A stretch of 64,000 bases of DNA, taken from positions 120,220-184,219 of the IMG/VR virus record IMGVR_UViG_3300037067_011302. The stretch is one strand, 5' to 3'. Both the position numbers and the translations under genes were made by a program. Position 1 is the stretch's first letter. The number at the start of each line of letters is the position of its first letter. Below are positions 24,829 to 56,990 of the stretch, one piece after another. The DNA comes from a virus (taxonomy: Duplodnaviria; Caudoviricetes). A model generated the notes under the pieces. That model was not told the origin of the DNA and did no database searches. It saw nothing but the letters and a program-made list of their open reading frames with translations.

Positions 24829-26673
24829 ATGACTCTCAAGCGTGATGATCTCAAGAGCGTGCGACAACGTAGGTACGTCGCAAAGGACTTCGATGGACTA
24901 CGTGCTCTGTTGTTGGAATACGTTCGCCTTTACTATCCCGACAGGATCAAAGATTTTTCTGAGACGTCTGTCGGTGGAATGTTTCTTGAGCTCGCCGCGT
25001 ATGTAGGCGACAATCTATCGTTTTACCTCGATCACCAGTACGGTGAGCTCAATCCTACGACCGCCGTCGAGACGACGAACATCGAACGTGCACTGAAGAT
25101 TGCCGGCGTGCCGATCGTCGGAGCGGCTCCGGCACTCGTTTCTGTGATGTGCTACGTTCAGGTGCCCGCAGAAAAGGTTTCAAACGTTCAGGGACCGATG
25201 ACGTCAGCAATTCCAACAGCACTGGCTGGTTCAATATTTTCGGCTGACAATGGCACGGTGTTCATTCTGTTGGAGGACATTGACTTCAATAAGAAACGTT
25301 CCGACGGAAAGTACGTTGCCGACGTACGTGTAAGTCAAAAGACGACAACGGGAGTTCCGACATCGTACGTCATGGCGTTGGCTGGACTGTGCATTTCTGG
25401 TGCTGAGACGACGGAAAGCGTCACATTGTCGGGTCCATTTGAGGCATTCAAGAAGATCACGCTTTCATACGCAAATGTATCGGAAATCGTTAGTGTGTAC
25501 GACGATCTAGGAAACACATACTATCAGGTCAATTCACTGTCTCACGATGTCGTCTACAAGAATGTCTTGAACACCTCAAAGGACACCGACCTCGTGAAGG
25601 ATGTCATCAAGATCATTCCTGCGCCGTATAGGTTCATTACGTCAGTCGACCTAGCATCAAGGAGGACGACATTGACGATGGGAGGAGGCAGCGCTGACAC
25701 GTTGGAAGACGATGTAATTCCTGATCCTGCCGACTTTGCAATATCGTTCCCATACAGCAAGACATTCTCAAGGATCTCAATAGATCCGAACAAACTGTTG
25801 CAGACGAAGACGCTCGGCGTCTGTGCAACTGACACAACGTTGTCGATCACGTACAGGTACGGTGGAGGACTCAGCCACAGCGTTCCACCCAACACGATTC
25901 GAACCGTCAAATCGTTGAAGATGCAATTTCCAAACAGTCCACAACCGGCAACTGCATCACAGGTTCGTACGAGCCTTGAGGTCTCAAATCCGCGTGAGGC
26001 GGCAGGAAGCGACGATGCTCCGACCGCGGACGAGTTGAAGATGCTGATTCCTCAATATAGGAGCGCTCAGGAACGAATCGTTTCACGTGAAGATCTGCTT
26101 GCACGAGTGTACACATTGCCATCAAACTTTGGGCGTGTGTTTAGGGCAGCTGTCAGGTCGAATCCAAACAATCCATTGGCACTACAGTTGTTCATCATCT
26201 CAAGGAACGCCGACAGTCAATTGATCGTGTCTCCTGACACGCTCAAGCAGAACCTGAGGACGTACCTAAATCCGTACAGATCAATTTCAGATGCCATTGA
26301 TGTCATTGATGCCAGAGTCATCAACGTAAAGTTAGACTTCGACGTCCTGTTGGATCCGTCGTTGAACAAGAGCATCGTCATGCAGACGATCCTCAAGAAG
26401 TTGCAGAAGACGATGGACATCAAGAACTTCCAAATCGATCAACCGATCGTGATTGAAGACGTGAGAGACGTCATCTTCTCAACGCCCGGTGTCGTGTCGG
26501 TGAATGGAATAAAGTTCGACAGTGTGAACGGCATTGTCGGCACTCGAACGTATAGTACAGAAGTGTTTGACGTTGCTGCAAATACAAACAAAGGAATCAT
26601 ATTCCCAACGGGAGGCGCAATCTTTGAGTGTCGCTATCCAGAATATGACATCACCGGAAAGGTAACTGGTTAA
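24829..26673 (+). CDS. Baseplate wedge protein (T4 gp6 / baseplate J-like)
   Basis: KDFDGLRALL..Y...YYP...DFSETSVGGMFLELAAYVGD.LSFYLD, YRYGGG, AQERIVSRED. Confidence 0.88.
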   Translation: MTLKRDDLKSVRQRRYVAKDFDGLRALLLEYVRLYYPDRIKDFSETSVGGMFLELAAYVGDNLSFYLDHQYGELNPTTAVETTNIERALKIAGVPIVGAAPALVSVMCYVQVPAEKVSNVQGPMTSAIPTALAGSIFSADNGTVFILLEDIDFNKKRSDGKYVADVRVSQKTTTGVPTSYVMALAGLCISGAETTESVTLSGPFEAFKKITLSYANVSEIVSVYDDLGNTYYQVNSLSHDVVYKNVLNTSKDTDLVKDVIKIIPAPYRFITSVDLASRRTTLTMGGGSADTLEDDVIPDPADFAISFPYSKTFSRISIDPNKLLQTKTLGVCATDTTLSITYRYGGGLSHSVPPNTIRTVKSLKMQFPNSPQPATASQVRTSLEVSNPREAAGSDDAPTADELKMLIPQYRSAQERIVSREDLLARVYTLPSNFGRVFRAAVRSNPNNPLALQLFIISRNADSQLIVSPDTLKQNLRTYLNPYRSISDAIDVIDARVINVKLDFDVLLDPSLNKSIVMQTILKKLQKTMDIKNFQIDQPIVIEDVRDVIFSTPGVVSVNGIKFDSVNGIVGTRTYSTEVFDVAANTNKGIIFPTGGAIFECRYPEYDITGKVTG

Positions 26674-28190
26674 TGTATCGCATCTATCGTGCCGACAAGG
26701 ACGCATACATCACGGATCGCGTGATCAACACGGTGCGTCGCACCGGAGCAAACACTGGTAGGTGTGGTACGCTTGACCTGTTTAAGTTGTACGGGTACAA
26801 CGTCAGCGGTTCATCTGCAGAACCACTGTATGAACTCTCGAGGTTACTTGTCCACTTTGACATCACTGGACTACGAACGTTGTTCGACGACGGGAAGTTT
26901 GATCCTGGAAATTCGAGCTTTTCATGCACTCTCAAGTTGTTCGACGTCTACGGTGGACAACCCACACCTGCAAATTTTACCGTCACGGCGTCACCATTGT
27001 CACGCTCGTTTGACGAAGGCTTGGGACGTGACCTCGTGCAGTACGCCGACACGGATGCGTGCAACTTTCTGACGGCTTCATGGACATCAGGCAGCTGGTA
27101 TGCAAGTGGGTGCGGCCTCGGCGGCGTGTCTGGGCAGTCTGTCGATTTCATTACGTCATCGTTGGCAGGAACTTCACTATCGTCAGAACAACTGTTTCAC
27201 ACCGGTGAAGAGGACCTTGAACTTGACGTCACGACTGTCATTTCTGCAACGTTGGCAGGCACGATCGACGATCACGGGTTTAGAATTGCACTGTCGTCTA
27301 GCCTAGAGGACGACGTTCACACCTACTTCGTCAAGAGATTTGCGTCTCGTCACGCGTACGATGAAAGCAAGCACCCAAGGTTGATCGTCAGGTACGATGA
27401 TTCAATCGAGGACGATTCGCAAGACCTGTACCTCGACGCAACCAGCACGTTGTTCATGCACAATTACGTCAGAGGAGTGCACGCAATATTAGCGTCAGGT
27501 TCGGCGTTGACGCCGATCACGGGAACAAACTGCGTGATCCTAAAATTGTCGACTGACATTTCAGGCGGTACATACACGTTGGCGTTCTCGGGTTCTCAAC
27601 ACTTCTCTGGCATCAACGCGGTGATGGGTGTCTATTCAGCGAGCGTCTACATTCCATCGACGAATGCGAACGTCATCTCAAAGTTGGCACTGTCAAGTTC
27701 AATCGCGTTCACGCCAGTGTGGGGTTCCGTTGATGGTTCTGTCGGGTACGTGACCGGGTCAACGATCTATGCGTACCCTGCGCAACGTGTTGCTGCAACG
27801 ATCGATTCGTCTAGGTACCACGTCAACATTTATGGTCTCAGGGAGAGCTACAACACGACTGACACAATCTCTGCACGTGTTAACGTGCTTGACCATTCAT
27901 CGCCGACGATCAGGCTGGTGAAGACACCTGTCGAACTTCCTGGAGTCGTCCTACGCGATGTTCACTTTCAGGTCCGCGACGCTGTGACGAACGTCATCGA
28001 GATTCCATTTGACACGGTGTACAATTCAACGAGGTGCTCGAGCGATTCAATGGGAATGTATTTTTCGATTGACGCATCGTCGTTGACGAAGGATCGTTCA
28101 TACGTTGTGGACGTGTCAATGAACGTCGGCGATGGAAGGCACGTCTACAAGGCAGCATCTCCTACGTTTAGAGTGAGCGACGTTCAGTGA
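26673..28190 (+). CDS. Virion structural protein (baseplate region)
   Basis: Coupled to the wedge gene (TAATG). KDAYIT, SRLLVHFD, HPRLIVRYDD; beta-rich. Confidence 0.7.
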   Translation: MYRIYRADKDAYITDRVINTVRRTGANTGRCGTLDLFKLYGYNVSGSSAEPLYELSRLLVHFDITGLRTLFDDGKFDPGNSSFSCTLKLFDVYGGQPTPANFTVTASPLSRSFDEGLGRDLVQYADTDACNFLTASWTSGSWYASGCGLGGVSGQSVDFITSSLAGTSLSSEQLFHTGEEDLELDVTTVISATLAGTIDDHGFRIALSSSLEDDVHTYFVKRFASRHAYDESKHPRLIVRYDDSIEDDSQDLYLDATSTLFMHNYVRGVHAILASGSALTPITGTNCVILKLSTDISGGTYTLAFSGSQHFSGINAVMGVYSASVYIPSTNANVISKLALSSSIAFTPVWGSVDGSVGYVTGSTIYAYPAQRVAATIDSSRYHVNIYGLRESYNTTDTISARVNVLDHSSPTIRLVKTPVELPGVVLRDVHFQVRDAVTNVIEIPFDTVYNSTRCSSDSMGMYFSIDASSLTKDRSYVVDVSMNVGDGRHVYKAASPTFRVSDVQ

Positions 28191-28219
28191 GGTATTATCT
28201 CTCTTGCTATGGAGTAATT

Positions 28220-29419: not shown

Positions 29420-29445
29420 CATATCAGAGGATCAGATGACGACGA
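29305..29445 (+). ncRNA. omegaRNA of TnpB family 2; scaffold ends near TCA 29426, guide (G)AGGATCAGATGACGACG
   Basis: Hairpins GGGTTC-GCAA-GAACCC and GTCAC-ATT-GTGAC. Conserved with the copies at 34155 and 59152. Confidence 0.7.
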
Positions 29446-32400
29446 GGCACACAGTCACATCACCGTTCATTCCTTCATTCTTGATCGCTGCTGCCGAAGG
29501 AACGAGGCCTGTGCAGTTATCGTTCAATGACGTCAGCGACACGAATATGTTGAGCACGTCGTCATTCATGTACGATGCAGCCGATGCACCGATGAAGTCA
29601 ACGCAGCAGCTCAACGTTGACTGGGCGCACTTCGAGAATCACACGTTCTTCATGTCGGCCGAGGCAAAGGTCAACCTAGCGTTCGACCAAATCATCAACG
29701 GATTTCCGTTCGATGGTTCTAGAAAGGACGTTGAAGAATTCTTTGAAAGGTTGACTGGGTACGACAAGTGGGTATTCAACGAATTTCCGAAGCACCGAGG
29801 ACAACTGCGATTTTCGGGAGGTCCTGTCGGTTCTTACGTTGTCGTCGAGGACGTTGCCGGCGGACTCTATCCTGAACTGGCAAAGAACAAGACGGGTGAG
29901 TCAATCCTGAATCCCAAGGACGGTGCATCGCTCAGTGTAGAGATGCAGTTGTTCCTTCCAAAGGTCACGAACGATTGTCAGGTCGTGTGCCAAAAATTGA
30001 GCGGCAGCACGCAGGGATTTTCGCTGTACGTTTCAGCGAGTTCACTTACGTCAAGTGCCGAGGCAATGTTCAGCGTCGTCTCGGGCACCACGTGTCTCAC
30101 CGTGCCCTTCACGCTCGACAAGGGGTTGTATAACCACCTGTGCGTGTCGTTGAATCGAGAGGGCGGCCTGCACTATCTGGAAGCATTCCAGGGTGCGGTG
30201 CTCAGTTCCTCGACACAGGCCCGTGCCGTGATCGGCGACATGGACATCGATGATTCACAGTTCATCATAGGCTCAGGGACAACGCTTTCGTTGGATGGAA
30301 CCACGTTCACTCCGAAACAGACGTTGTCGGGTACGATCGATGAGCTACGAGTGTTCCACTCAACACGTACCGAATCGCAGCAGGCGTTGTACGCTCAGAA
30401 GGCGCTGTATTCGACGTCCGACCTCAAGCTCTACTACAGGTTCAATGAGCCACCGATGTTGGCGACTTCAGGCAGCACGATCGATTCAATCGTCATTGAT
30501 AGCAGCGGAAATGCACTTCACTCGTATGTCACTAACTTCACAGGAAGCTTGAGGGAAAATTCAGCGCTCGATGCACTCAATCCGATGGTGTACGAAAAGG
30601 ATGAAACGATTCCTGTCCTATTCCCAAAGTACGCTGGCGTCGTTGATTTCAACGTTGAATTGTTGGCAAGCGCGTCCGAATACGACAGAGCAAATCCAAA
30701 CCTCATCACGAGGCTCGTTCCTGAACACTACCTGCTCGAGGGCGCAACGTTTGACGGATTTGATGAACCTGAGTGCAACGGCAATGATGCGTACTCCGGT
30801 GAAGGAATTCCCGGTGAGGGAAAGATCGGCAACGTGCAGATCATGTTGTCGTTGCTCTACGTGTACGCAAGATTTTTCGACGAATTGAAGTTGTTCGTCG
30901 ATGCGTTCAGCACGATTGGGTACGTTGACTACGACACGAACCTAAGCATGCCGAACAACTTCCTTCGTGACGTGATTTCGAGCTATGGTTTTGAGCTGCC
31001 TCCGTTGTTCAACGATTCGACGATCGAACAGTACATACGTGCCGAGAACATCGATCCGATGATCAGCACCGGTACGACGCCGTTGAAGAGCGTACAGCAC
31101 GAATTGTTGCGACGTGTGTTGATCAACCTGCCGGACGTCATTCGTTCAAAGGGAACGCAGCACAGCATCAAGGCATTCCTACGAACGATCGGCATCGATC
31201 CTGACAACAGCATGAGGATCAGGGAGTACGGCGGCCCGACGTCGCGGCACCTGACGTTCTCTCGAGAAAAGAAACGTGACGTCATGACGATGGTCGAATT
31301 TTCAACGTCATCGTACTTTGACACCGGAATATTGTCCGGCTCTCGCGTTGAGGTGGGATATCCCGAAGTCAGCGGCACGATGGTCATGAAGGACATTTTT
31401 GCGCCGCACGGCGTCAGCGACAGTGTTGATGACGGAATGTTCACGTCAGGATCGTGGACAATCGAGGCAACGTATGCATACAAGAAGACGCACGTTTCCT
31501 CGATGACGAATGCGACGCAGAGCCTCGTGAGGATGAACCTCATCGGGTGCAACACCTACAATGAGCCCGTGGGGTCAGGAATTGATCCACTTCTCGTTGC
31601 GAACTTGCTGGCGATTTCATCGTCAGTCGATCCCAGGATCTCCCTGTACATCAAGCCGACGATCTTGAATCGACCGATTGACGCTCCACTCGTGTTGACG
31701 TTGGACATTCCGACGGGAACGTTCTTTGACGGTGACGTGTGGCAGGTGTCGTTCGGGTGCCAACGAAATGATGAAATCGATTCATTGACATCATCGTCGT
31801 ACTTCTTACGCGTGGCATGTCAGAACAACGGAGAGATCTGGCACAGTCAGTCGACGTCGTCATACTACGATGATTCTGTGCAACACCTTGCAGGCAATCC
31901 CGACTATCCTAACGTTCTACGTAGCAAGTCGCTCGTCACTAGTCCTAGCCACGACCCTCACTTGAACATGGACGGCGTCGGAATCACATTGTCGATGGGA
32001 ACAAATCAATCGATCGCGTCAGGCCCAGGGGGTGACTATTTCTTGTTGAATACGACGGACGTTAATGTTCCTCCTGAAGCTCGAGCGACCGACTTCAATG
32101 GCATGGCGTCGAACCTTAGGTTCTGGTCGAAGGCACTGACGACAGACGAGTGGAAAGAACACGTGCTGAACTACAACTCACGCGGCGTTCATGATCCATT
32201 GGTGAACTTTAACTTTGAGCACGTTCGCACCGGTTCGTTCGAACGTCTAAGGCTTGAGACATTGTGTAAACAGGACACCCGTCGAGCAATTGCAACGGCA
32301 AGCCTAGGAATCCTGGGAACGATTGAATTTCTTGACTTCAGTCAGAACGGCATTCATTGTTCTGGTAGCGGTTTTCCAATCGAAAAAGACTGCGTGAAGC

Positions 32401-32990
32401 CGACGATGATTGACTTCAGCTACGTTTCGCCGAGGTTCGATGAGGCGGTCACTGATGAAAAGGTGAGGATCAGGAGCTACAATGATCAAGCGCTCGTCGA
32501 TGCAACGCCCTGGGCAGCACACGCTCCTGTGTATGAACTGTTGAAGAGCGAAGAGCCCATGGACGACACGAGGTTTTCAGTTGAATTTTCGTTGACTGAT
32601 GCGCTCGACAGGGACATCGTCACGATGTTTGCGACGTTGGACTCGTTCGACAATGCACTCGGCGCGCCGGAACTGTTGAACTCACCTGACTATCCCGACC
32701 TGGCAAGGTTGCAGGACATTTACTTTCATCGCATCGGTGAGAAGTTGAACTTCAAGGCGTTCCATGAATTCTTCAGGTGGTTCGATTCATCGATCGGCAC
32801 GTTCATTTCACAGCTCGTGCCGAAGAAGACCAATTTCAAGGGAGTGAACTTTACCGTGGAATCTCACATGTTGGAACGCTCTCACCTCGAATACTACCAG
32901 AATGAACAATATTTGTCGGAGACATCACGCGTGAGATTCAGTGATTCGTTGGTCCTACAACAGATCTTCGGAACGATCAAGAAATACTGA
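29436..32990 (+). CDS. Large baseplate/tail protein with LamG/concanavalin A-like domains
   Basis: LSGTIDELRVF, LKLYYRFNE, NLRFWSKALT, IRSKGTQHSIKAFL. Confidence 0.75.
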   Translation: MTTRHTVTSPFIPSFLIAAAEGTRPVQLSFNDVSDTNMLSTSSFMYDAADAPMKSTQQLNVDWAHFENHTFFMSAEAKVNLAFDQIINGFPFDGSRKDVEEFFERLTGYDKWVFNEFPKHRGQLRFSGGPVGSYVVVEDVAGGLYPELAKNKTGESILNPKDGASLSVEMQLFLPKVTNDCQVVCQKLSGSTQGFSLYVSASSLTSSAEAMFSVVSGTTCLTVPFTLDKGLYNHLCVSLNREGGLHYLEAFQGAVLSSSTQARAVIGDMDIDDSQFIIGSGTTLSLDGTTFTPKQTLSGTIDELRVFHSTRTESQQALYAQKALYSTSDLKLYYRFNEPPMLATSGSTIDSIVIDSSGNALHSYVTNFTGSLRENSALDALNPMVYEKDETIPVLFPKYAGVVDFNVELLASASEYDRANPNLITRLVPEHYLLEGATFDGFDEPECNGNDAYSGEGIPGEGKIGNVQIMLSLLYVYARFFDELKLFVDAFSTIGYVDYDTNLSMPNNFLRDVISSYGFELPPLFNDSTIEQYIRAENIDPMISTGTTPLKSVQHELLRRVLINLPDVIRSKGTQHSIKAFLRTIGIDPDNSMRIREYGGPTSRHLTFSREKKRDVMTMVEFSTSSYFDTGILSGSRVEVGYPEVSGTMVMKDIFAPHGVSDSVDDGMFTSGSWTIEATYAYKKTHVSSMTNATQSLVRMNLIGCNTYNEPVGSGIDPLLVANLLAISSSVDPRISLYIKPTILNRPIDAPLVLTLDIPTGTFFDGDVWQVSFGCQRNDEIDSLTSSSYFLRVACQNNGEIWHSQSTSSYYDDSVQHLAGNPDYPNVLRSKSLVTSPSHDPHLNMDGVGITLSMGTNQSIASGPGGDYFLLNTTDVNVPPEARATDFNGMASNLRFWSKALTTDEWKEHVLNYNSRGVHDPLVNFNFEHVRTGSFERLRLETLCKQDTRRAIATASLGILGTIEFLDFSQNGIHCSGSGFPIEKDCVKPTMIDFSYVSPRFDEAVTDEKVRIRSYNDQALVDATPWAAHAPVYELLKSEEPMDDTRFSVEFSLTDALDRDIVTMFATLDSFDNALGAPELLNSPDYPDLARLQDIYFHRIGEKLNFKAFHEFFRWFDSSIGTFISQLVPKKTNFKGVNFTVESHMLERSHLEYYQNEQYLSETSRVRFSDSLVLQQIFGTIKKY

Positions 32991-34268: not shown

Positions 34269-34294
34269 TGTGTCAAGGATAGACGTACATGGCG
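34155..34294 (+). ncRNA. omegaRNA of TnpB family 2; scaffold ends near TCA 34275, guide (A)GGATAGACGTACATGG
   Basis: GGTTC-GCAA-GAACC and GTCAC-ACT-GTGAT hairpins. Confidence 0.7.
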
Positions 34295-37581: not shown

Positions 37582-37588
37582 GGACTAA

Positions 37589-38683
37589 ATGACATCTTAC
37601 TACGACACAATCAGTGGAAAAGTTGCGTCTGGAATCGCCTACGTTTCTGGCTCCGGAATTGCAACCATCTGTCGCTATACGCCGACCGACGGACACATCG
37701 TCAACGTGCGCGCACCCTACATAGCCGTTGCCGTGTCAGGAGACTGCAGAGGTGGAATTGTGTCAGGTGCAATCTATCGCTCCGGATCTGTGACGTCGAT
37801 ATTGTCCACGGGTCACGATTCACTCTCAAGTGGTTCAACGGCTTCCTCATGGTCATGCAACCTCGACTCGCTCGGCACTGACGTGTTGCTGTCATTCACT
37901 GGTTCAGTGGATGCTGTAAAGGTCGCCGGTTCGATGACAGCGTCTCCGAGCACACTTGCGTGGAATCCTCTATTGTTGTCTCCTATGGCATACTACGTTG
38001 CCACGTCGTCAGTCATGACGTTGAGTGGGAACGACGTTGTCCAGTGGAACGATGCATCGGGCAACGGATATCACCTCGGACAGGCGACCGAATCAAAGAG
38101 GCCTCACCTCGTCGATGCACCGACGATCACCAACAACACGATCGGCAGAAAGTCGCCGGCCGTGCAGTTCACCAAAGCAGCAACACAGTTTCTCACCGGC
38201 ACGGTGTTACCTTACCTGACGTCTTCATACACAATGTCGTCGGTCGTTCGAATGAACACTGGAAGCTGGCCGAATGCATCACAGACGAATTGTCTTTGGA
38301 TCAACGGTGAGGTTGCAGGCTCAGGACAATCAGTTGACATACGCATCTTGTCAACCGTCCTCGGCGTTCTTCTCTACCACGCGCCGCCAATCAACGCAAT
38401 GTGTTTCAATGGCGTTGCGGAGAGCTATGAGCCCAAGTCGGTGTCAGTGAGGTACGGTTCTGATGTCGGTGAGGTGAGGTACGGAAGTGACGTTGCGACT
38501 GCTGCGATGGTAACGTCGTCGATTGCCGTCGGATTTAACACGATCGGTGCACGAGCAAATACTTCTTCAGATGCGTTCGACGGCTACGTGCACGAGATGT
38601 CAATCTACAATCGACGATTGGATGACGCTGAAATTGCGATGCTGTCGCAGTATTACCTGTCACGATATGGCACGCCGGCGTAG
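37589..38683 (+). CDS. LamG/concanavalin A-like lectin-domain tail protein
   Basis: WNPLLLSPMAYY, VVQWNDASGNGYHL, FDGYVHEMSIYNRRL. Confidence 0.75.
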   Translation: MTSYYDTISGKVASGIAYVSGSGIATICRYTPTDGHIVNVRAPYIAVAVSGDCRGGIVSGAIYRSGSVTSILSTGHDSLSSGSTASSWSCNLDSLGTDVLLSFTGSVDAVKVAGSMTASPSTLAWNPLLLSPMAYYVATSSVMTLSGNDVVQWNDASGNGYHLGQATESKRPHLVDAPTITNNTIGRKSPAVQFTKAATQFLTGTVLPYLTSSYTMSSVVRMNTGSWPNASQTNCLWINGEVAGSGQSVDIRILSTVLGVLLYHAPPINAMCFNGVAESYEPKSVSVRYGSDVGEVRYGSDVATAAMVTSSIAVGFNTIGARANTSSDAFDGYVHEMSIYNRRLDDAEIAMLSQYYLSRYGTPA

Positions 38684-38686
38684 GCG

Positions 38687-39364: not shown

Positions 39365-39495
39365 GGTGATTCCGATGATTAACTATGTTTGTGCACGTGT
39401 ATTGTCGCAGACGTTGTGTGATTTGTAATTGTGTTGCACGTGGCCGAACATGTTCATCGCTTTCTACTTAGAGGTGTCAACTACAGGAATTCACG

Positions 39496-40305
39496 ATGAC
39501 GACTGGTCTTCTCGGCACTCGCTACAGTTGGTTCAGTAACATTCTTCTCGGTGCACCCGAGGATGAAGGCGTTCCTGTTGAACACCTGCTGACGTCCAGC
39601 ATTGACACGTCGGAAATTGATGCGTACCGTCAGGGCGTTGAACTACGACTGCCAAAACACTACGAGCAAGGCGTCGTCAAGATTCATTCTGGAGAGACAG
39701 ACCACGTCCTCAAACAACAATGGTTCGGAATGGGCGACAAATGGTGGAAGGATGCGTTCTTCACCGACAAGCAAGAATTTCGAACGATCCTATTTGCGTC
39801 ATCGTCAACGTATGAATTCCCAACGACGCTTGCGTTCGATGAAAACTTGGAAGTTGGCACTGCACATGACGGCGTCATTGAACCGTTTGAGATCAGGGAC
39901 GTCGTGGAATCATCGACGAGCAGTTCACTGTTTCACGTTGCCAATGCAGCAGTGATGGCTGGAAATGTTGACATCAACGATGCATCTGACGCCATTGTCA
40001 CCGTTTACGATCCTGCACAACGTGATCACAAGGAATTCTTTGACGTACGTGGCGAACTTGAAAGACAGTCAACGTACGATGACGCAAGGTCAGACGTTGA
40101 ACCTTTCAACGATAGGCGATTGACGAGCAACTTCACGTTGTCATCGAGCGTTGACGTTGGAATGATTGCTGCATTATCGCCGATGACCGGATCGACGATG
40201 AATTATATTGCACCTTGGCAGGTCTCATCAACGTGTGGTTGGTCGTTTGACTACAACTCATCGATTGGGACTGATTCGTTAGCGTTTGGAGGAATGACAT
40301 ACTAA
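39496..40305 (+). CDS. Virion structural protein (hypothetical)
   Basis: In the tail module, preceded by CTACTTA. DGVIEPF, GTDSLAFGG. Confidence 0.65.
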   Translation: MTTGLLGTRYSWFSNILLGAPEDEGVPVEHLLTSSIDTSEIDAYRQGVELRLPKHYEQGVVKIHSGETDHVLKQQWFGMGDKWWKDAFFTDKQEFRTILFASSSTYEFPTTLAFDENLEVGTAHDGVIEPFEIRDVVESSTSSSLFHVANAAVMAGNVDINDASDAIVTVYDPAQRDHKEFFDVRGELERQSTYDDARSDVEPFNDRRLTSNFTLSSSVDVGMIAALSPMTGSTMNYIAPWQVSSTCGWSFDYNSSIGTDSLAFGGMTY

Positions 40306-43300
40306 TGGCGACGCCAAAGAACGGACGGCAACAGCCTCCTCGAGTCTTCAAGAACTACACGCTCGTTCGCGTCAGCGCACCTCACGTTGGATTGACGGAC
40401 ATTCCTGACTCCGCAATGACGCCGTTGAACGTTGCAAACACGAAGGGCGCTCCGTACTATGCGTTGGTCGCCATTGGGTTCGACTTTTCGTTTAACGGAA
40501 TCACGTACAAGTCGTGCGTGCCGCACCAGTTTGGGTGCTTGATGCTCGCGGATCCCGTTGATTCAGCGTCCGCTGATGACGTGATTGCACACCTATTCAC
40601 GGACTCAAACGTCTACGGCGATAGCATACTGACGAGCATTGCCTACGATGATGCACTTCTAGCACCTTGGCTTGAGGAACAATATAGCACCACCGACATT
40701 CCTGATGCATCATTCATTGGCTACAACGACAGGATGAAGTACGGGATGGCGACGGCGTATCAATCGTACAGTCAGGTCAACTGTGGCCTACGAATGTACG
40801 TCGACGAGCACTCGTCAAAGGGTCGTAGGACGATCTTTCGTTGGACGTCAATGCCGGCCGAGTGGGATTCATTCCTTGCACCGAACGTGTACGTGTTTCG
40901 TTTTGAGTGCATTCTGTATGAATCGGGACGCATTGAGTACAGGTACGATTCGAGAAAGAACACCGGTCTCGGTCCAGCGGCGGCAGAAATGTCGAATGCA
41001 AAGGGCGCGATCGGTTCGTGGGCGTCAGGTTCGTACACGTTTCGAGACTTTTCGCTTGGATTGGGCTATGACGACGACAAACGTAGTGAATACACGTACG
41101 GCGGAATGTCGTACTCATCGTACGTCGACGGAGCGATTCCTTGGGCGTACAACCTGACTGCCCGACGACACTGGCCAGCTCCGTATGAGCACGGTGCAAT
41201 GTATGTGTTTGAACCGCCGAAGATGCGACGACGTGTGTTGCCGAGGATCGAACAGAGGATCGTCGATTCGAGGCTCACTTATCCACACACATCGCGCGCG
41301 CTCGTTCCGCAACACCAACGCGTGACGTCACAGGTGTTCGACGATCGTAGAACAGTTCCATTCATCACTCAATCGATCGTTGCATCGATCATCACCGGAT
41401 CGGTCGTCAACTATCCGACGGCAATGAGAAGGTTTCAGGGGGGCACGTCCCACGGCGTTGCCGAAAGGCAGGATCTATTCACAGGTGACCTTGAACTCAC
41501 GGGTGGAATCGTCAAGTCAGCGTGTGATGATTGGATGAACGCTCCCGATCCGATCCAAACGTTGCCATGGTCGGAAGCGCTGATCCACGACGGTGATGAT
41601 CCGTTCTTTAGTGGTTCGTTGATCGAAGAGGTTGGACTTGGATTCTCGTCGCCGCTGCACAGCAAGACGCAGCTACGGATGTCGTTCGGCATCAACACGT
41701 CGACGCAGATGTTGAGTGCGTCGTCATGCATCTACTACTTCAACACGAAGGCGGGAATGTGGGAGATTCCTCAGAACTCAATCAGTTCATCGTACAAACA
41801 ACCGATTGATGCTTCAAATAGTGACATCGGTGATCCTTTATTTGACAGTCCTTATGGTCGCGTATTAGAAGACTACAGAGGATTTGGACCAATTGGTAAC
41901 TTTGTGTGTTCCGGTGGCATTGATCGTGGAACTGATGTTGGTAAGCAGTCTGATACAATCATTGGTTCAAGTATAACGCGTGATTTGTTGGTTAATGCGT
42001 TGACAAGCGAACTAACAAATAGTATCACCGTCAATGAGGATTATAGGGCTACGTCTGATGAGGTCTTCTCAATCCCAATTGAAAAACCATTCCTTCTTGA
42101 AAAGGCGGTGTTCAATTTTCCAATGGCTGCTGGACCTGGGTGGTTTTGGGATTACACGACGACATACATCACAAGTGAAGGAATATGGGAACAATCATTT
42201 GATTTTGGTGGACCTGGTTTAACGATTGCATTGTTCAATCAACGTACGATGGGCGATGGCACAACGATCCGTGATCTCATCATGACAGGCACGATCACGC
42301 ACAAGTACGATGATTGTAGCTTTTTCAACGTCAGGGATACTCAACTCAAACAGATGGGATTTCGAGCATACGGCTCATCACCATCGACGATCATTCATCC
42401 AACGAACATATTGACAGGCCCGGGGGGCGAAGAAGAACCTCAATATTTGTTGACGTCATCATACACTGGTTCAATCAATGTTCAGTGCACTTCTCAGGTC
42501 ACAAACAATATTTTTGTTAGATTGTATAAGCGATGTGAACTTCCTGACGATTTATTTTCGTACTTTAATAAAGAAAAATTGAACGTATACGAAGTTGGTA
42601 CGACTGAACTTCGCGGCCTACACACATCATCATACGTTAGTTCATTCGGTAGGAACAAGTGTGGATTGAACGCCACACTACGTTCACAATTTTGCAAGGA
42701 ATTTGCAACTCCACAGAATTTGAATGAAGGAGGAAATGTTCCAAATCCATTCTATGTGTCAGGCGGAATGGGATTGATTGATCAATGGAACTATTGGTCA
42801 TACATTTCATCATATTTTACTGGTTCATCAACATATCCATCAAGTTCATTAAAATTGACTGGTAATGATTCAATCGCAGTCTCAACGATCATTCAATTAA
42901 ACAATACACAAGAATCTCCATACCTCATCCTACCAGGAGATAAGTTAGTCTTGGCACTTGCTAAGGCACGCCCATTTTGCATGGGCTCAAATTACAGTCC
43001 ACGTCCTAGCGTTTCATCATCATTGTCACACGACATACAACTAATGACAGGAACTCTCAATGTTACGTTGTATGGGAGCATGGTTCGCGAAGGCAAGGAA
43101 TTTCATGAACAACTGACGCAGCCATTCGAGACGAACTCAATTCACGTTGCGATTGGTGATGAACCTGTGCTCGATCAGATTGAACCCGACTACAAGCAAT
43201 TGTTCATCTCAGGATCAAATGACGATCACCACGTACAGTTCGTCTTGACAAGCGAAAAAGAAGGTACAATTGATGGTGGATTTTGGGGTGATTCTGCATT

Positions 43301-44507
43301 GTATGACGCAATAAAAGCAAAGCAGACGATCACTGATTGGGTCAGCGGAAGAAAGTTCAGCAACGTTCGACCGAATGATACGTTGAAAAGTTTGACGTAT
43401 CGTTACAATGACATACGAAGGAATGAGAAAAATTTATATTCAGATTATTATAAATCGTACAATACGTGCAAGACAAATGTTAGGTACGTTCAATGCAACA
43501 ATAACGTTGAACGTTTTTGGGATTCAATGATGCCTTCAGTCGACGAATGTTTCAAAATTGACAACATGTCAATAATGAGGATTGGTAGCACGGGTTCATT
43601 TATAGCGGGTGGACTTGGATCTTTATTATACACGAATGGATTTGCCATCTTTGATTGTGCACACAGCGATTCAAGTGTGACGACAGGAAGCATTAACAAT
43701 AATTGGACAAAGTCATATCCATTTGAACCTCATTATGGAACGGCTGCACGACAAGAAAAAATTGAAAAATCATTTATTTCACATTTGTTCATTCCTTCAG
43801 GATCATTGACGTGTAGTGTCACAACGCCTATACCTATTTCAGCGTTTACGTGTGGACCTGTTGGAAAACCGTGGTTACGTAGTGCAACGTATTCATACTT
43901 TAATTTTTTATATGATTATTGGGGAGGTGGAGGTGAAAGAGTGTTGTATAAAACGATTTCACCAACCGTCAATGATTTAACAAAGGTGCTATATGGATTC
44001 GGCGACTTCAACAACATGATCGTTTCTGGCGGACTGACGTATGGAACAAATCACTTCGCTGATACGATGTTATACACTGATGAGTATTGGTTCATCGATG
44101 AAAATCACCACACGACGTATGGTCTAGGTCCCATCATTCGCGGGTGGAAGTACGGCGTCTATAGCGGCCTGCCGTTCTACTCGAAGGCAGTCTTTCGTCG
44201 TTCAAGCTACGGCCAAATGCGCGACATGCTCGAGCAGCGTCCCTACACGAAGTTCTACGTCATTCCCGATGAAGAAGGTGCAAAGAAGTCGGTGCGCGTC
44301 GGACCCGTCACCGTGCAGTTCGTGACGCAGGACGGCAAGGTGACAAAACCCGAGAACACGTGGTCGCAGAACCTGAGCACCGAGGCAACCTCGTCGTTTC
44401 CGTACTTGGATGGCGTAGCCCGCAACCGCACAGATCCCGTCGGGTCCGTGCTCAACTCTAGCGTCGTCAACTTCACGTTCGACCAGTTTGGCCAGTTGAC
44501 CGTGTGA
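40305..44507 (+). CDS. Large virion structural protein (1400 aa)
   Basis: IGFDFSFNGITY, FECILYESGRIEYRY, IRGWKYG, YGQMRDMLEQR. Low-GC central segment. Confidence 0.7.
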   Translation: MATPKNGRQQPPRVFKNYTLVRVSAPHVGLTDIPDSAMTPLNVANTKGAPYYALVAIGFDFSFNGITYKSCVPHQFGCLMLADPVDSASADDVIAHLFTDSNVYGDSILTSIAYDDALLAPWLEEQYSTTDIPDASFIGYNDRMKYGMATAYQSYSQVNCGLRMYVDEHSSKGRRTIFRWTSMPAEWDSFLAPNVYVFRFECILYESGRIEYRYDSRKNTGLGPAAAEMSNAKGAIGSWASGSYTFRDFSLGLGYDDDKRSEYTYGGMSYSSYVDGAIPWAYNLTARRHWPAPYEHGAMYVFEPPKMRRRVLPRIEQRIVDSRLTYPHTSRALVPQHQRVTSQVFDDRRTVPFITQSIVASIITGSVVNYPTAMRRFQGGTSHGVAERQDLFTGDLELTGGIVKSACDDWMNAPDPIQTLPWSEALIHDGDDPFFSGSLIEEVGLGFSSPLHSKTQLRMSFGINTSTQMLSASSCIYYFNTKAGMWEIPQNSISSSYKQPIDASNSDIGDPLFDSPYGRVLEDYRGFGPIGNFVCSGGIDRGTDVGKQSDTIIGSSITRDLLVNALTSELTNSITVNEDYRATSDEVFSIPIEKPFLLEKAVFNFPMAAGPGWFWDYTTTYITSEGIWEQSFDFGGPGLTIALFNQRTMGDGTTIRDLIMTGTITHKYDDCSFFNVRDTQLKQMGFRAYGSSPSTIIHPTNILTGPGGEEEPQYLLTSSYTGSINVQCTSQVTNNIFVRLYKRCELPDDLFSYFNKEKLNVYEVGTTELRGLHTSSYVSSFGRNKCGLNATLRSQFCKEFATPQNLNEGGNVPNPFYVSGGMGLIDQWNYWSYISSYFTGSSTYPSSSLKLTGNDSIAVSTIIQLNNTQESPYLILPGDKLVLALAKARPFCMGSNYSPRPSVSSSLSHDIQLMTGTLNVTLYGSMVREGKEFHEQLTQPFETNSIHVAIGDEPVLDQIEPDYKQLFISGSNDDHHVQFVLTSEKEGTIDGGFWGDSALYDAIKAKQTITDWVSGRKFSNVRPNDTLKSLTYRYNDIRRNEKNLYSDYYKSYNTCKTNVRYVQCNNNVERFWDSMMPSVDECFKIDNMSIMRIGSTGSFIAGGLGSLLYTNGFAIFDCAHSDSSVTTGSINNNWTKSYPFEPHYGTAARQEKIEKSFISHLFIPSGSLTCSVTTPIPISAFTCGPVGKPWLRSATYSYFNFLYDYWGGGGERVLYKTISPTVNDLTKVLYGFGDFNNMIVSGGLTYGTNHFADTMLYTDEYWFIDENHHTTYGLGPIIRGWKYGVYSGLPFYSKAVFRRSSYGQMRDMLEQRPYTKFYVIPDEEGAKKSVRVGPVTVQFVTQDGKVTKPENTWSQNLSTEATSSFPYLDGVARNRTDPVGSVLNSSVVNFTFDQFGQLTV

Positions 44508-44525
44508 TGCATAGTTAGACGTGAG

Positions 44526-46739
44526 ATGTCCGACATCACGAAGCAATCAGTCGAACGTTCGATGTTTGTGTTCATCCGCGATCCAAACACAGGAATCGTA
44601 CGACGGACGGTGGTGCCGTCTGACCTACAAGTCGGCACGTCGCTCGTTCCTTCTGAGTTGCAGCTCACCGGGCGCCTATCGCTCGCAGCACGTGATGTCA
44701 CCGTGGCGAATGCATCGCAGGCAACTTTTTCAATCTCACCGCACGATTCTCTTGTGTTCATCAACGTCACGAACACGTCGTCACTTCCCGGCGTCAGCGC
44801 GAGCCTACCGTCGAACGTTCGTGACGGTGAGCTACACGTTGTCAAGGACGCATCTCGCACCTCATCGACAGTTCCCATCACGATCTTTCCTGATTCTGGT
44901 GCCCTGATCGACGGAGCAACGACGAAGGTGCTCAATAGCGACGGTGACTCCCTGGTGCTCTGTCGTGAGTCAGGGGCATGGCACTCCATTGCGAAGTACT
45001 CGACGGCATCTGGTGGCGGCGGTGCCCCCGTGGATGCACAGTACGTGGTGGTCAGCCTCAACGGCACGCTGACGAATGAACGTAGGTTGGTCGTCAACGC
45101 TGACGACATCTCATTGAGCGACGCAGGTCCAGGTGCCGACCTCACGTTGGCCCTTGCACCGACTGCAGTGACAGCGGGTTCCTACACGAACACGTCATTG
45201 ACGGTTGATGCCAACGGAAGATTGACTGCGGCATCGAATGGAACAGGTGATAGTGGTGCAGATCGTGAGGCACAGTTCCTATTGATTGCCACCACTGCTT
45301 CACTTCCAAATGAACGAGCGTTGGCCGTCGTTGCCGGTGATTTGACGTCGACCGACGGAGGTGCAGGAAGCAATCTTCAACTTGGCCTCGCCAACACAGC
45401 AGTGTCAGCGGGTTCATACACGAATACCTCACTTACTGTCGATGCCAAGGGTAGGTTGACTGCGGCGTCGAATGGAATTCCGGGTGCAGACAGGGAAGCA
45501 CAGTATCTTCTTATTGCTAACACTGCTTCACTTCCAAATGAGAGAGCATTGTACGCTGATGGAACGAACATCTCGTTGACTGATGATGGAACGAAGCTCG
45601 CCGTTGACTTGGTCGCAACCGCCGTCTCCGCAGGTTCCTACACGAATGCCTCGATCACTGTTGATGCCAAGGGTAGGTTGACGGCTGCCTCTACGGGAAC
45701 TGACAACGGTGCTGACAGAGAAGCACAGTACATCCTCATTGACACAACGGCTTCACTTCCCAATGAACGTTCACTAAAAGCGGGAACAGGCATAACACAA
45801 ACTGACACAGGCGCAGGTAATTCATTTACACTAGCCGTCGATAACAACGTCGTTGCAACGATCTCGGGATCAACATTTTCAGGACCTGTTTCAACGAATG
45901 GACACCTGTACATCAACAACAGCGCATATCTCGGCGACTCGAAATTTTTGTTCTTCGGTAAAGACTGTACAGTATATCAGGATTGTGCATCAGGAGATTC
46001 TACGTACGTCTATCGTACCACAAATTCTAATGAAGTACAGATCTTCGGCGATGATGACACAGTCGCCACCGCCGGCGTCGGAGCGTCTCGTTTCATAGGT
46101 AATTTAAGCGCGAGCCTTGAAACGATACACACTGGACATGAATCGCATGCCTGTGGAGTGCACGTCGGTGGTAAACGTATCGTACTACGTCATGAAGCTA
46201 TTGACACGCTCGTCGTCAGCTCATCATACGTCGTTCCACGCGTGCCAATTAGGTTTCCGACAACCCAAATCGTCGAGGCGATGGGCGATGTTGGAATGAA
46301 TGTCACGACCGGGCGCATGACGATGTACGTGAATGGTGCATCACGAAACGTTGCGTACGTTGGCGAGAGTCCAACGAATGTCACGTATCCACTGCTCGCC
46401 GGCGTTGCAAACTGTTCTGTCACGTCATCGCAACGCGTGGGTTCAAAGTACATTGATTCATCGAGCCTTGCATCGCTCGGAGCGACCGTGAACTTTCGAG
46501 CGATCTGGGAGTCGACGACGGGCATCACGGCCGAAGTGAGCCTCTACAACCGCTCGAGTGCCTCGTACGTTGCCGGTTCAACGATGACGACGACCTCGCT
46601 CGTGCCGTTCTTTTCATCGAGCGTAGTCTCGTTGAACCCAGGAATGTGCATCTATGAGGCGCACCTACGAGCAACGACAGCGATCACGTCCAGCAAGGTC
46701 GTCACGTGTTCGTCGGCTGAGCTCTATTTATCGTGGTGA
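44526..46739 (+). CDS. Tail fibre protein with tandem repeats
   Basis: Three AGSYTNxSxTVDAxGRLTAAS repeats and four AQY/F...ASLPNER repeats. Confidence 0.75.
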   Translation: MSDITKQSVERSMFVFIRDPNTGIVRRTVVPSDLQVGTSLVPSELQLTGRLSLAARDVTVANASQATFSISPHDSLVFINVTNTSSLPGVSASLPSNVRDGELHVVKDASRTSSTVPITIFPDSGALIDGATTKVLNSDGDSLVLCRESGAWHSIAKYSTASGGGGAPVDAQYVVVSLNGTLTNERRLVVNADDISLSDAGPGADLTLALAPTAVTAGSYTNTSLTVDANGRLTAASNGTGDSGADREAQFLLIATTASLPNERALAVVAGDLTSTDGGAGSNLQLGLANTAVSAGSYTNTSLTVDAKGRLTAASNGIPGADREAQYLLIANTASLPNERALYADGTNISLTDDGTKLAVDLVATAVSAGSYTNASITVDAKGRLTAASTGTDNGADREAQYILIDTTASLPNERSLKAGTGITQTDTGAGNSFTLAVDNNVVATISGSTFSGPVSTNGHLYINNSAYLGDSKFLFFGKDCTVYQDCASGDSTYVYRTTNSNEVQIFGDDDTVATAGVGASRFIGNLSASLETIHTGHESHACGVHVGGKRIVLRHEAIDTLVVSSSYVVPRVPIRFPTTQIVEAMGDVGMNVTTGRMTMYVNGASRNVAYVGESPTNVTYPLLAGVANCSVTSSQRVGSKYIDSSSLASLGATVNFRAIWESTTGITAEVSLYNRSSASYVAGSTMTTTSLVPFFSSSVVSLNPGMCIYEAHLRATTAITSSKVVTCSSAELYLSW
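45030..45790 (+). repeat. Intragenic tandem repeat (~75-80 aa unit)
   Basis: GGTTCCTACACGAA..GATGCCAA.GG.AG.TTGAC and ACTGCTTCACTTCCAAATGA recur at the DNA level. Confidence 0.8.
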
Positions 46740-56988: not shown

Positions 56989-56990
56989 AG

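What the first reader, a model, noticed from the sequence alone, without database searches (positions are those of the whole stretch)
26673..46739. [ST]-[GAS]-S motif saturates unrelated virion proteins: candidate glycosylation sequon
Seen: TGS/SGS/TAS/TSS/SSS occurs repeatedly in 26673 (VSGS, LTASWTSGS, FSGS, VTGS), 29436 (LSGS, FTGS, TSGS, RTGS, ATAS), 34289 (many ITGS/LTGS/LSGS), 37589, 39496, 40305 (ITGS, LTSSYTGS, FTGS, ISGS, TTGS) and 44526 (TAS in every repeat). It appears rare in the enzymes and TnpBs. These proteins have different folds, so a shared tripeptide suggests a recognition signal. Inference: it is the acceptor site for the phage's own glycosyltransferases, producing a glycan-shielded virion.
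Basis: partly seen in the sequence, partly recalled or inferred. Interest (0 to 1): 0.75.

Follow-up and report, generated by a model that had tools for sequence, protein, structure and literature searches.

The report
Candidate sugar-attachment tag on phage tails
The outer baseplate and fibre proteins of this uncultured jumbo phage, its many relatives and two cultured phages carry the ordered tripeptide Ser/Thr-Gly/Ala-Ser three to five times more often than chance, and it behaves like a signal read by an enzyme, most plausibly an attachment site for sugars made by the phage's own glycosyltransferase island, though no chemistry has been done.

Summary
In nine proteins between 26673 and 47705, [ST][GAS]S occurs 109 times against 37 expected (z about 12). 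The excess survives local-composition shuffles and depends on residue order. TGS and SGS are the two most over-represented of all tripeptides.

The excess starts sharply at the first protein after the gp6-like wedge. It holds in about 80 related IMG/VR phages (GC 30-65%), in Flavobacterium phage immuto and in Microcystis phage Mel-JY01, but not in T4.

Sites are conserved, with S/T and G/A/S interchange and a nearly invariant third Ser. Their structural contexts are mixed.

Two independent sublineages lost the motif from all orthologues at once. They keep the conserved GT4 pair, GT2S and GT2L (whole or only its N half). They lack the middle block of at least five GT genes plus Ugd-like that all six motif-rich genomes examined carry.

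My reading is a Ser-specific O-glycosylation sequon on distal tail proteins (about 0.5). The main rival is an unmodified turn or strand-end motif. The capsid and portal are not enriched, so "glycan-shielded virion" is too broad.

This scan has already reported the same motif with a GT pair in at least eight other genomes. My data contradict the claim that the GT4 pair alone tracks the motif.

The parts
26673..28190 (+). Family-1 protein (505 aa), first protein after the gp6-like wedge. It is a multi-beta-sandwich with a CBM-like domain and carries 11 motif sites. This is where the motif-rich block begins.
   Evidence: More than 1268 homologues. Eight of 11 sites are kept in at least 83 of 120 homologues. 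AF2 model pLDDT 73; fold matches.
29436..32990 (+). Family-2 protein (1184 aa), a LamG/pentraxin-like multidomain baseplate protein with 18 motif sites.
   Evidence: 1960 representative homologues; the median homologue has 18 sites, at 2.9x. AF2 model pLDDT 85; fold matches.
34289..36127 (+). Thr/Gly/Ser-rich fibre protein (612 aa) with roughly 28-residue repeats, each holding two motifs; 20 sites in all. Its N-terminus resembles tail-fibre PHROGs.
36529..37581 (+). LamG-domain tail protein (350 aa), 7 sites. Paralogue of 37589.
37589..38683 (+). LamG-domain virion protein (364 aa), 11 sites.
39496..40305 (+). Conserved 269-aa protein, 6 sites. Its orthogroup pools to 2.63x across relatives.
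40305..44507 (+). Conserved 1400-aa distal tail protein, 17 sites. Its orthogroup pools to 2.19x.
44526..46739 (+). Tail-fibre protein (737 aa) with three roughly 75-residue repeats, each containing TTASLPNER; 15 sites.
46752..47705 (+). 317-aa protein, 4 sites. Weak, not significant on its own.
   Evidence: 53 of 300 shuffles reach the observed count.
24829..26673 (+). gp6-like baseplate wedge protein (614 aa). Motif-poor; it marks the inner side of the boundary. Its orthogroup has 67 sites observed against 138 expected.
2302..11932 (+). Upstream part of the glycan island. In order: GT2L (a GT-B-like N half fused to a GT2 domain), methyltransferase, GT2S, then the middle block. The middle block is GT4-like 5713-6627, p122, GT4-like 6999-7946, GT1 7954-8859, GT-B-like p384, GT-A-like p243 and a UDP-glucose-dehydrogenase-like gene. 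The middle block is absent from all motif-poor relatives.
   Evidence: No TM segments.
13610..14740 (+). UDP-galactopyranose mutase (Glf).
   Evidence: PF03275, E 6e-68.
15801..16436 (-). Fringe-like (GT31) glycosyltransferase.
   Evidence: PF02434, E 9e-17.
14991..19032 (+). Conserved end module: PD-(D/E)XK nuclease, GT4a (16435-17847) and GT4b (17851-19032). It is found across the whole superclade, including immuto, Mel-JY01 and the motif-poor lineages.
   Evidence: A heterodimer model supports GT4a-GT4b binding.

Best explanation
The motif is hydrophobic-[S/T]-[G>A>S]-S-hydrophobic/aromatic. I read it as a short linear signal that selection keeps on the proteins distal to the baseplate wedge (outer baseplate, lectin-like proteins and fibres). 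It occurs across a large superclade of aquatic myophages.

The most likely mechanism runs as follows.
- The proteins are made in the cytoplasm.
- A soluble phage glycosyltransferase recognises the motif and O-glycosylates the nearly invariant third-position serine.
- Further glycosyltransferases of the island extend the glycan, using Ugd- and Glf-derived precursors and a methyltransferase.
- The particle therefore leaves the cell with sugar-decorated tail tips rather than a fully shielded virion.

Shown here: the motif statistics, site conservation, coordinated loss, the association with the island's middle block, and the soluble nature of the island.

Inferred: that the signal is a glycosylation site, that the third Ser is the acceptor, and which enzyme reads it.
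For: 1. The excess is order-specific and independent of composition.

2. A positional scan over 222 non-identical distal proteins of the clade (151,000 residues) gives a sharp definition.
- Position 1: only T (3.3x) and S (2.6x) are enriched.
- Position 2: G 5.2x, A 2.2x, S 1.7x.
- Position 3: S 2.8x but T only 1.4x.
- Flanks are hydrophobic, and D, E and K are excluded.
- [ST]GS occurs 1170 times against 224 expected.

3. At conserved sites, position 1 is S 53% / T 46%, position 2 is G 63% / A 26% / S 7%, and position 3 is S 93% / T 3%. Motif serines are more conserved than other serines of the same protein (0.73 vs 0.50, p 0.02; 0.49 vs 0.37, p 0.056).

4. There is a sharp boundary along one operon in about 80 relatives with GC from 30 to 65%. 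The wedge protein is at 0.48x and gp25 at 1.07x. Family 1 is at 3.25x, family 2 at 3.16x, and the next two orthogroups at 2.6x and 2.2x.

5. The excess is absent from T4 fibres and peripheral baseplate proteins (21 vs 21.6). It is present in cultured Flavobacterium phage immuto (wedge 0.79x, downstream proteins 2.2-5x) and Microcystis phage Mel-JY01 (wedge 0.88x, downstream 2.7-5.9x).

6. Two independent sublineages, nested among motif-rich ones, lost the motif from all orthologues together. One of them shows a graded decline. The former sites now hold unrelated polar or charged residues, so the fold does not need the motif.

7. Structural contexts are mixed in two AF2 models: 66% coil, 17% strand interior, 7% helix, close to the background distribution.

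8. All six motif-rich genomes examined carry the middle block of at least five GT genes plus a Ugd-like gene. All four motif-poor contigs lack it.

9. No island protein has a TM segment, and no flippase, polymerase or lipid-carrier transferase is present. The glycan must therefore be built on a soluble acceptor.

10. There is precedent for Ser-not-Thr hyperglycosylation of folded beta-rich proteins by a soluble enzyme: TibC/AAH (PMC4358343).
Against: - No chemical evidence of any modification exists.
- The GT4a/GT4b pair, GT2S and GT2L (whole, or only its N half in two contigs) persist in lineages without the motif, and GT4a/GT4b keep their EX7E motifs there. The most conserved enzymes therefore do not track the motif.
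- The association with the middle block rests on only two independent loss events.
- Immuto and Mel-JY01 are motif-rich, but their middle GTs are not detectably orthologous to the window's. No single candidate reader is conserved wherever the motif is.
- The capsid and portal are not enriched, unlike the mycobacteriophage case.
- In immuto and Mel-JY01 the PDDEXK-GT4-GT4 module lies among replication genes. Relatives also encode a ThyA-like gene. DNA or another soluble target for the island is therefore not excluded.
- [ST]-G-S can be rationalised as an ST-turn or strand-end sequence. Motif serines lie next to a strand end twice as often as background (28% vs 14%).
Confidence: 0.5

Rival explanations
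1. The motif is an unmodified structural element. [ST]-G-S would be a favoured ST-turn, strand-end or hairpin sequence (a hydroxyl side chain capping the backbone, with Gly giving the turn). This clade's beta-sandwich and fibre proteins would use it where other phages use Asx-Gly turns. Nothing would be attached to it.
For: - The flanks are hydrophobic and Gly is preferred at the centre.
- Motif serines sit within two residues of a strand end twice as often as background (28% vs 14%).
- In 34289 the motif is part of a regular repeat of about 14/28 residues.
- Motif-poor lineages show a small excess of D-G-S, 17 against about 5.4 expected, as if Asx-turns had replaced ST-turns.
- Ser is a better turn former than Thr, which could explain the asymmetry at position 3.
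Against: - Contexts are mixed: long coil, strand interior and helix all occur.
- The beta-rich wedge and hub proteins of the same phages are depleted rather than enriched.
- T4 fibres show no excess.
- Whole lineages dropped the motif from every orthologue at once without losing the folds, and GC content does not explain this.
- The D-G-S sites in motif-poor family 1 do not sit at the former motif positions.
Confidence: 0.27
2. The motif is a recognition signal for something other than glycosylation. This could be another serine modification (phosphorylation, acylation, phospho-sugar or phosphoglycerol addition). It could also be a docking motif for an assembly factor specific to distal tail proteins.
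For: The signal-like behaviour applies equally here: sharp positional definition, conservation, coordinated loss and a compartment boundary. The most conserved GTs do not track the motif.
Against: - No kinase, acyltransferase or similar enzyme was found next to the tail genes in the Pfam and PHROG scans of the window.
- The only gene set found to co-vary with the motif is a block of glycosyltransferases.
- Ten to twenty docking sites per protein would be unusual for a chaperone signal.
Confidence: 0.13
3. The excess is a statistical or compositional artefact of Ser/Thr/Gly-rich fibre proteins, internal repeats or post-hoc choice of motif.
For: The proteins are S/T/G-rich. 34289 and 44526 contain internal repeats.
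Against: - Global and local shuffles give z 8-12, also without the repeat proteins.
- Permuted-order controls reach only 1.06-1.97x.
- The unbiased tripeptide ranking puts TGS and SGS first.
- The excess is replicated in about 80 relatives and two cultured phages.
Confidence: 0.02

Closest known systems
Virion O-glycosylation of mycobacteriophages by phage-encoded glycosyltransferases (Freeman et al. 2023, Cell Host Microbe). Known here only through citing papers PMC12619734 and PMC11256854; the paper itself is not held.
   Same: Phage-encoded soluble glycosyltransferases lie beside structural genes and are proposed to decorate virion proteins in the cytoplasm.
   Different: In mycobacteriophages the glycans sit at the C-termini of the capsid and tail-tube subunits (PMC12619734), and modification was measured. 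Here the candidate sites are internal, number 10-20 per protein and sit on distal baseplate and fibre proteins. The capsid is not enriched, the island is far larger (about 11-12 GT domains), and nothing has been measured.
Bacterial autotransporter heptosyltransferases (TibC-TibA, AAH-AIDA-I; PMC4358343)
   Same: A soluble cytoplasmic enzyme hyperglycosylates many serines, but not threonines, on a folded beta-rich adhesin. This parallels the Ser-specific third position and the multi-site pattern seen here.
   Different: No BAHT or GT9-type enzyme was seen in the island (Pfam finds GT2, GT4 and GT31 only). Most substrates here are beta-sandwiches, not beta-helices. BAHT has no comparably sharp tripeptide.
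GtfA-GtfB O-GlcNAc transferase of serine-rich-repeat adhesins (from my own knowledge, not checked in a paper here)
   Same: Two adjacent GT-B (GT4-type) genes whose products act as a heterodimer on Ser-rich acceptors. A model supports GT4a-GT4b binding: score 0.90 against best control 0.00, a mark reached by 58 of 80 solved complexes and 2 of 110 mismatched pairs. The runs agree in at least 86% of contacts and the partner pLDDT is at least 90. Because similar complexes are solved, this pass may reflect likeness only.
   Different: No DUF1975 domain was found. Both subunits keep the EX7E motif. The pair persists in phages without the motif.
ST-turn / Asx-turn small structural motifs (from my own knowledge)
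   Same: Ser/Thr followed by a small residue at strand ends; hydroxyl capping could explain a [ST]-G-S preference.
   Different: Such motifs are not known to be confined to one virion compartment, nor to be lost from all proteins of a lineage at once.
Virus-encoded glycosylation machineries of giant viruses (chloroviruses, mimivirus fibrils; from my own knowledge). The GT4a sequence also matches PBCV-1 B736L (3oy2).
   Same: Large virus-encoded sets of soluble glycosyltransferases and sugar-nucleotide enzymes build glycans on virion surface proteins without host ER or lipid-carrier pathways.
   Different: Those are eukaryotic viruses with different acceptors (atypical N-sequons in chloroviruses) and no shared gene order with this island.

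Membership tests
Phage virion glycosylation of the mycobacteriophage (Che8) type | Phage-encoded glycosyltransferases next to virion structural genes | tested here: met
   The GT island at 2302-19032 lies directly upstream of, and co-oriented with, the baseplate operon. The arrangement is conserved in relatives.
Phage virion glycosylation of the mycobacteriophage (Che8) type | Glycans demonstrated on virion proteins | not testable with these tools
   Needs mass spectrometry or glycan staining of virions.
Phage virion glycosylation of the mycobacteriophage (Che8) type | Acceptor sites at the C-termini of capsid and tail-tube subunits | tested here: not met
   The capsid has 4 sites against 2.8 expected. 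Candidate sites are internal and lie on distal tail proteins.
BAHT (TibC/AAH) autotransporter heptosylation | Serine but not threonine acceptors, many per substrate | tested here: inconclusive
   Sequence only: position 3 is S 93% / T 3% at conserved sites, with 10-20 sites per protein. No modification is known.
BAHT (TibC/AAH) autotransporter heptosylation | BAHT/GT9-type heptosyltransferase enzyme | tested here: not met
   Pfam scans of the island proteins give GT2, GT4/GT1 and GT31 families only.
GtfA-GtfB two-subunit protein O-GlcNAc transferase | Two adjacent GT-B subunits forming a heterodimer | tested here: inconclusive
   The genes are adjacent and conserved. The model supports binding: 0.90 against best control 0.00 (mark reached by 58 of 80 solved complexes and 2 of 110 mismatched pairs), runs agreeing in at least 86% of contacts, partner pLDDT at least 90. 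This is a prediction and may reflect likeness to solved complexes.
GtfA-GtfB two-subunit protein O-GlcNAc transferase | DUF1975 insertion in GtfA and a catalytically inactive GtfB | tested here: not met
   No DUF1975 hit. GT4b keeps the E279...E287 motif.
Bacteroidota general O-glycosylation (D-[ST]-[AILVMT] sequon, periplasmic, lipid-linked; from my own knowledge) | Asp immediately before the acceptor, and a lipid-carrier/flippase pathway | tested here: not met
   Asp is strongly excluded at the position before the motif (0.1x). At the position directly before the putative acceptor Ser (motif position 2), G/A/S dominate and D is 0.7x. No TM protein, flippase or lipid-carrier transferase is in the island.

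The most novel reading that the evidence does not exclude
A defined, Ser-specific O-glycosylation sequon, hydrophobic-[S/T]-[G/A]-S-hydrophobic, is used by a widespread superclade of aquatic myophages (hosts include Bacteroidota and cyanobacteria). It would hyperglycosylate their receptor-binding tail apparatus with a phage-built, lineage-variable glycan. The fixed GT4a/GT4b heterodimer and the swappable middle GTs would divide the labour of initiating and extending the glycan. This would be the first sequon described for any phage glycoproteome, and it would imply that tail-fibre glycans help determine adsorption, host range or particle survival in nature.
Probability: 0.4. Interest if true: 0.85.

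Novelty: new variant of a known kind. Interest (0 to 1): 0.66.

Why it matters
- Glycosylation of phage particles by phage enzymes has been measured only in mycobacteriophages, and no acceptor sequon is known for any phage.
- If this motif is such a sequon, glycosylated tail proteins could be predicted from sequence alone in thousands of uncultured aquatic phages.
- The function of the large, puzzling glycosyltransferase islands of jumbo and T4-like aquatic phages would become testable.
- It would mean that receptor-binding proteins of abundant environmental phages carry glycans. That matters for host-range prediction, structural work and recombinant expression of fibres.
- Two cultured phages, Flavobacterium phage vB_FspM_immuto and Microcystis phage Mel-JY01, show the same pattern, so the question can be settled directly at the bench.

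Tried and rejected
- **DNA-level signal.** Rejected: codons at the sites vary.
- **Composition or local low complexity.** Rejected.
- **GC-driven amino-acid usage.** Rejected. Motif-rich relatives span 30-65% GC, and motif-poor ones span 31-44%.
- **Generic property of tail fibres.** Rejected for T4 (0.97x). Xanthomonas phage XacN1 ORF325 gave 2.0x with GTs nearby, so it was not a clean control.
- **GT4a/GT4b pair as the enzyme that co-varies with the motif.** Rejected. The pair is intact in four motif-poor contigs.
- **GT2L as the co-varying enzyme.** Rejected. It is present in L110 and L122. In L109 and L121 only an ORF of about 300 aa matching its N half remains.
- **A replacement sequon in motif-poor lineages.** Nothing convincing was found, only a weak D-G-S excess.
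- **'Avoidance' of [ST]GS in inner proteins.** It is 0.36x in the clade's upstream block. Other non-target sets range from 0.4 to 1.4x, so this is only suggestive.
- **Single-protein scans of IMG/VR.** Family 1 and its motif-poor orthologue found nothing. Family 1 has no match in cultured phages, and megablast of the window found nothing.
- **Fold searches.** They gave only generic CBM or LamG beta-sandwich matches.
- **PDB sequence searches of GT4a and GT2L.** They gave generic GT-B and GT-A relatives.
- **Solvent accessibility.** It could not be computed, because model coordinates are not exposed to scripts.
- **Literature.** Freeman et al. 2023 is not held. Searches found no paper describing this motif. 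'Moraphages' (PMC12619734), with four core GT orthogroups, may be related, but this was not tested.

Full report
**What the window is**

The window is the last 64 kb of a 184-kb IMG/VR virus record that CheckV rates 54% complete. That makes it a jumbo myophage. Its left part holds a glycan-synthesis island at 2302-19032. The island contains:
- GT2L, a fusion of a GT-B-like N half with a GT2 domain;
- a methyltransferase and a short GT2;
- three small GT-B genes;
- two further genes that the ESM Atlas places with GT-B and GT-A folds;
- a UDP-glucose-dehydrogenase-like gene and UDP-galactopyranose mutase;
- a PD-(D/E)XK nuclease, a Fringe-like GT31 gene on the minus strand, and a pair of GT4 genes.

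None of the island proteins has a membrane-spanning segment.

The baseplate operon follows directly: gp25-like 23687-24154, gp6-like wedge 24829-26673, then the proteins of the finding. Two TnpB genes interrupt them, at 28187-29419 and 33072-34268.

**The observation**

All quoted examples are present. The nine proteins from 26673 to 47705 hold 109 [ST][GAS]S sites against 37.4 expected from within-protein shuffles (z 12.1).
- The five permutations of the same residue classes reach only 1.06-1.97x.
- Shuffling within 10- or 20-residue blocks, which preserves local composition, leaves z 10-12. Without the two internally repetitive proteins it leaves z 8-9.
- In an unbiased ranking of all tripeptides, TGS and SGS come first and second.
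- Codons at the sites vary, so the signal is at protein level.
- Only 36529 and 37589 are detectably paralogous, although a LamG domain recurs in three of the proteins.

In the rest of the genome the capsid, portal and enzymes are not enriched. The two sheath paralogues are mildly enriched. A few unannotated proteins are enriched, among them G000 95513-97987, which has a LamG domain, and 98500-99714.

**Definition of the motif**

I pooled 222 non-identical distal proteins from about 80 related IMG/VR contigs. The enriched residues are T and S at position 1, G then A then S at position 2, and S at position 3, with T barely enriched there. Both flanks are hydrophobic or aromatic, and D, E and K are strongly excluded. 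[ST]GS occurs 1170 times against 224 expected.

**Conservation**

Family 1 (26673) has more than 1268 homologues. In the closest 120, at 50-62% identity, eight of its eleven sites are kept in at least 83 sequences.
- Position 1 exchanges S and T freely, and position 2 exchanges G, A and S.
- Position 3 is Ser in 93% and Thr in 3% of sequences.
- Motif serines are more conserved than other serines of the same protein.

Family 2 (29436) has 1960 representative homologues. About eight of its 18 sites are widely kept and the others turn over. The count per homologue stays near 18, at a median of 2.9x.

**Where the signal starts and how far it spreads**

Across the relatives (GC 30-65%) the gene order is PDDEXK, GT4a, GT4b, hub genes, gp25, wedge, family 1, family 2, then the 39496-type and 40305-type proteins.
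- Pooled ratios are 0.5-1.2 for everything up to and including the wedge, with the wedge itself at 0.48.
- They are 3.25, 3.16, 2.63 and 2.19 for the four distal orthogroups.

The major capsid protein and GT4a identify the nearest cultured relatives: Flavobacterium phage vB_FspM_immuto, Microcystis phage Mel-JY01 and Rhodothermus phage RM378.
- Immuto shows the same pattern: wedge 0.79, downstream proteins 2.2-5x, and one tailspike with 60 sites against 20.4 expected.
- Mel-JY01 shows it too: wedge 0.88, downstream proteins 2.7-5.9x.
- T4 fibres and peripheral baseplate proteins show none (21 vs 21.6).

**Loss of the motif**

Among family-2 representatives a few are motif-poor. On a maximum-likelihood tree they fall in two places nested among motif-rich branches. 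One is P0248 alone. The other is a clade with a graded decline, from P0180 at 1.9 down to P0250 at 0.8.

In their contigs every distal orthologue is motif-poor at once. These contigs have GC from 31 to 44%, while motif-rich relatives at 30-33% GC keep the motif. At former family-1 sites the motif-poor orthologues carry residues such as TTT, VS, AD, NK and KQ. The fold therefore tolerates unrelated polar residues there. No clear replacement motif appears, only a weak D-G-S excess.

**Structure**

AlphaFold models are available for family 1 (pLDDT 73) and family 2 (pLDDT 85). Both are multidomain beta-sandwich, CBM-like or LamG-like proteins.

The 29 motif sites fall in long coil (38%), coil next to a strand (28% against 14% background), strand interior (17%), strand edge (10%) and helix (7%). 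This is close to the background distribution, apart from the doubling next to strand ends. The motif is therefore not one recurring buried turn. Solvent accessibility could not be computed.

**Co-occurrence with glycosyltransferases**

The GT4 pair, PDDEXK, GT2S and GT2L (whole, or only its N half in L109 and L121) are present in the motif-poor contigs. GT4a and GT4b are 40-48% identical to the window's, with the EX7E motifs intact. The most conserved enzymes therefore do not track the motif. This contradicts earlier notes of this scan.

The island is much smaller in the motif-poor contigs, however.
- All six motif-rich genomes examined (the window plus five large IMG/VR records) carry the same ordered middle block. 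It runs p122, GT4-like b, GT4-like a, GT1, then p384, p243 and Ugd-like, with unannotated ORFs in between.
- All four motif-poor contigs lack that block.

Immuto and Mel-JY01 also share only PDDEXK, GT4a and GT4b with the window by BLAST, and their other GTs are not detectably orthologous. The island thus has fixed ends and a swappable middle.

**The GT4 pair**

A complex model supports GT4a-GT4b binding. The score is 0.90 against a best control of 0.00. That mark was reached by 58 of 80 solved complexes and 2 of 110 mismatched pairs. The runs agree in at least 86% of contacts and the partner pLDDT is at least 90. The pass may reflect likeness to solved GT-B heterodimers, and it says nothing about the substrate.

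**Interpretation**

Five behaviours are what one expects of a sequence read by an enzyme, and not of a folding requirement:
- a sharp positional definition;
- class-wise conservation with a Ser-specific third position;
- a compartment boundary within one operon;
- simultaneous decay in all proteins of a lineage;
- mixed structural contexts.

The only neighbouring machinery that co-varies with the motif is a block of soluble glycosyltransferases. The island has no lipid-carrier or export genes. TibC/AAH provides precedent for Ser-not-Thr hyperglycosylation of folded beta-rich proteins in the cytoplasm (PMC4358343).

I therefore favour an O-glycosylation sequon on distal tail proteins, at about 0.5. 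The main rival, at about 0.27, is an unmodified ST-turn or strand-end preference. Other serine modifications or docking signals take about 0.13. An artefact is essentially excluded.

'Glycan-shielded virion' overstates the case, because the capsid and portal lack the excess. The island's target could still be DNA or another soluble acceptor. Relatives encode a ThyA-like gene, and in immuto and Mel-JY01 the GT module lies among replication genes.

**Relation to earlier notes of this scan**

The same [S/T]-[G/A]-S excess with a conserved GT pair has already been reported by this scan in at least eight other genomes. The island of this genome has also been noted. I reached immuto, the boundary and the loss lineages independently.

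- site-level conservation;
- two independent loss lineages with an intact GT4 pair;
- the association with the middle block;
- a second cultured example, Mel-JY01;
- the heterodimer model.

Noticed in passing
window 16435-19032: The two adjacent GT4 genes are conserved from this clade to Flavobacterium phage immuto, Microcystis phage Mel-JY01 and Rhodothermus phage RM378. They usually sit right after a PD-(D/E)XK nuclease gene (in Mel-JY01 a GuaB gene lies between; RM378 context was not examined). A complex model supports a heterodimer: 0.90 against best control 0.00, a mark reached by 58 of 80 solved complexes and 2 of 110 mismatched pairs, with at least 86% contact agreement and partner pLDDT at least 90. 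The invariant C-terminal tail of GT4a (residues 464-470, with W465) lies on GT4b residues 247-256.
   Followed up: partly
window 12452-13603, 28187-29419, 33072-34268: Three TnpB (OrfB_IS605/Cas12f-like) genes are inserted inside the glycan island and between baseplate genes. Relatives lack them at these places.
   Followed up: no
window 2302-4218; L109 14191-15980; L121 6806-7705: GT2L is a fusion of a GT-B-like N half of about 300 residues (GGAELT motif) with a GT2 domain. In one motif-poor relative (L109) the N half is a separate 301-aa ORF, followed by an unrelated 295-aa ORF. In L121 only a 299-aa ORF matching GT2L is left.
   Followed up: partly
G000 81439-86055 (L018): The portal gene is 1538 codons long and also matches several HNH-endonuclease and helicase PHROGs, which suggests intein or homing-endonuclease insertions.
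   Followed up: no
G000 53768-59962 (L013, L014): Two adjacent tail-sheath paralogues of about 1000 residues each, both mildly motif-enriched (2.2x).
   Followed up: no
L026, L119, L120, L025 (motif-poor relatives): The distal proteins of the motif-poor lineages show a small excess of D-G-S: 17 sites against about 5.4 expected. In the window's own distal proteins D-G-S is at 0.6x. This could be an Asx-turn substitute or a shifted signal; it is unexplained.
   Followed up: partly
G000 104765-111203 (L011, L012): Two large Ser/Thr-rich proteins (1334 and 813 aa) have no family match. They have fewer motif sites than expected (4 vs 7.0 and 2 vs 4.2), so they are S/T-rich proteins that escape the motif.
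   Followed up: no
L118 (Xanthomonas phage XacN1, 203370-216456 of AP018399.1): A 3313-aa protein after the wedge gene shows a 2x excess of the motif. It lies next to annotated GT9-family and other glycosyltransferase genes.
   Followed up: no
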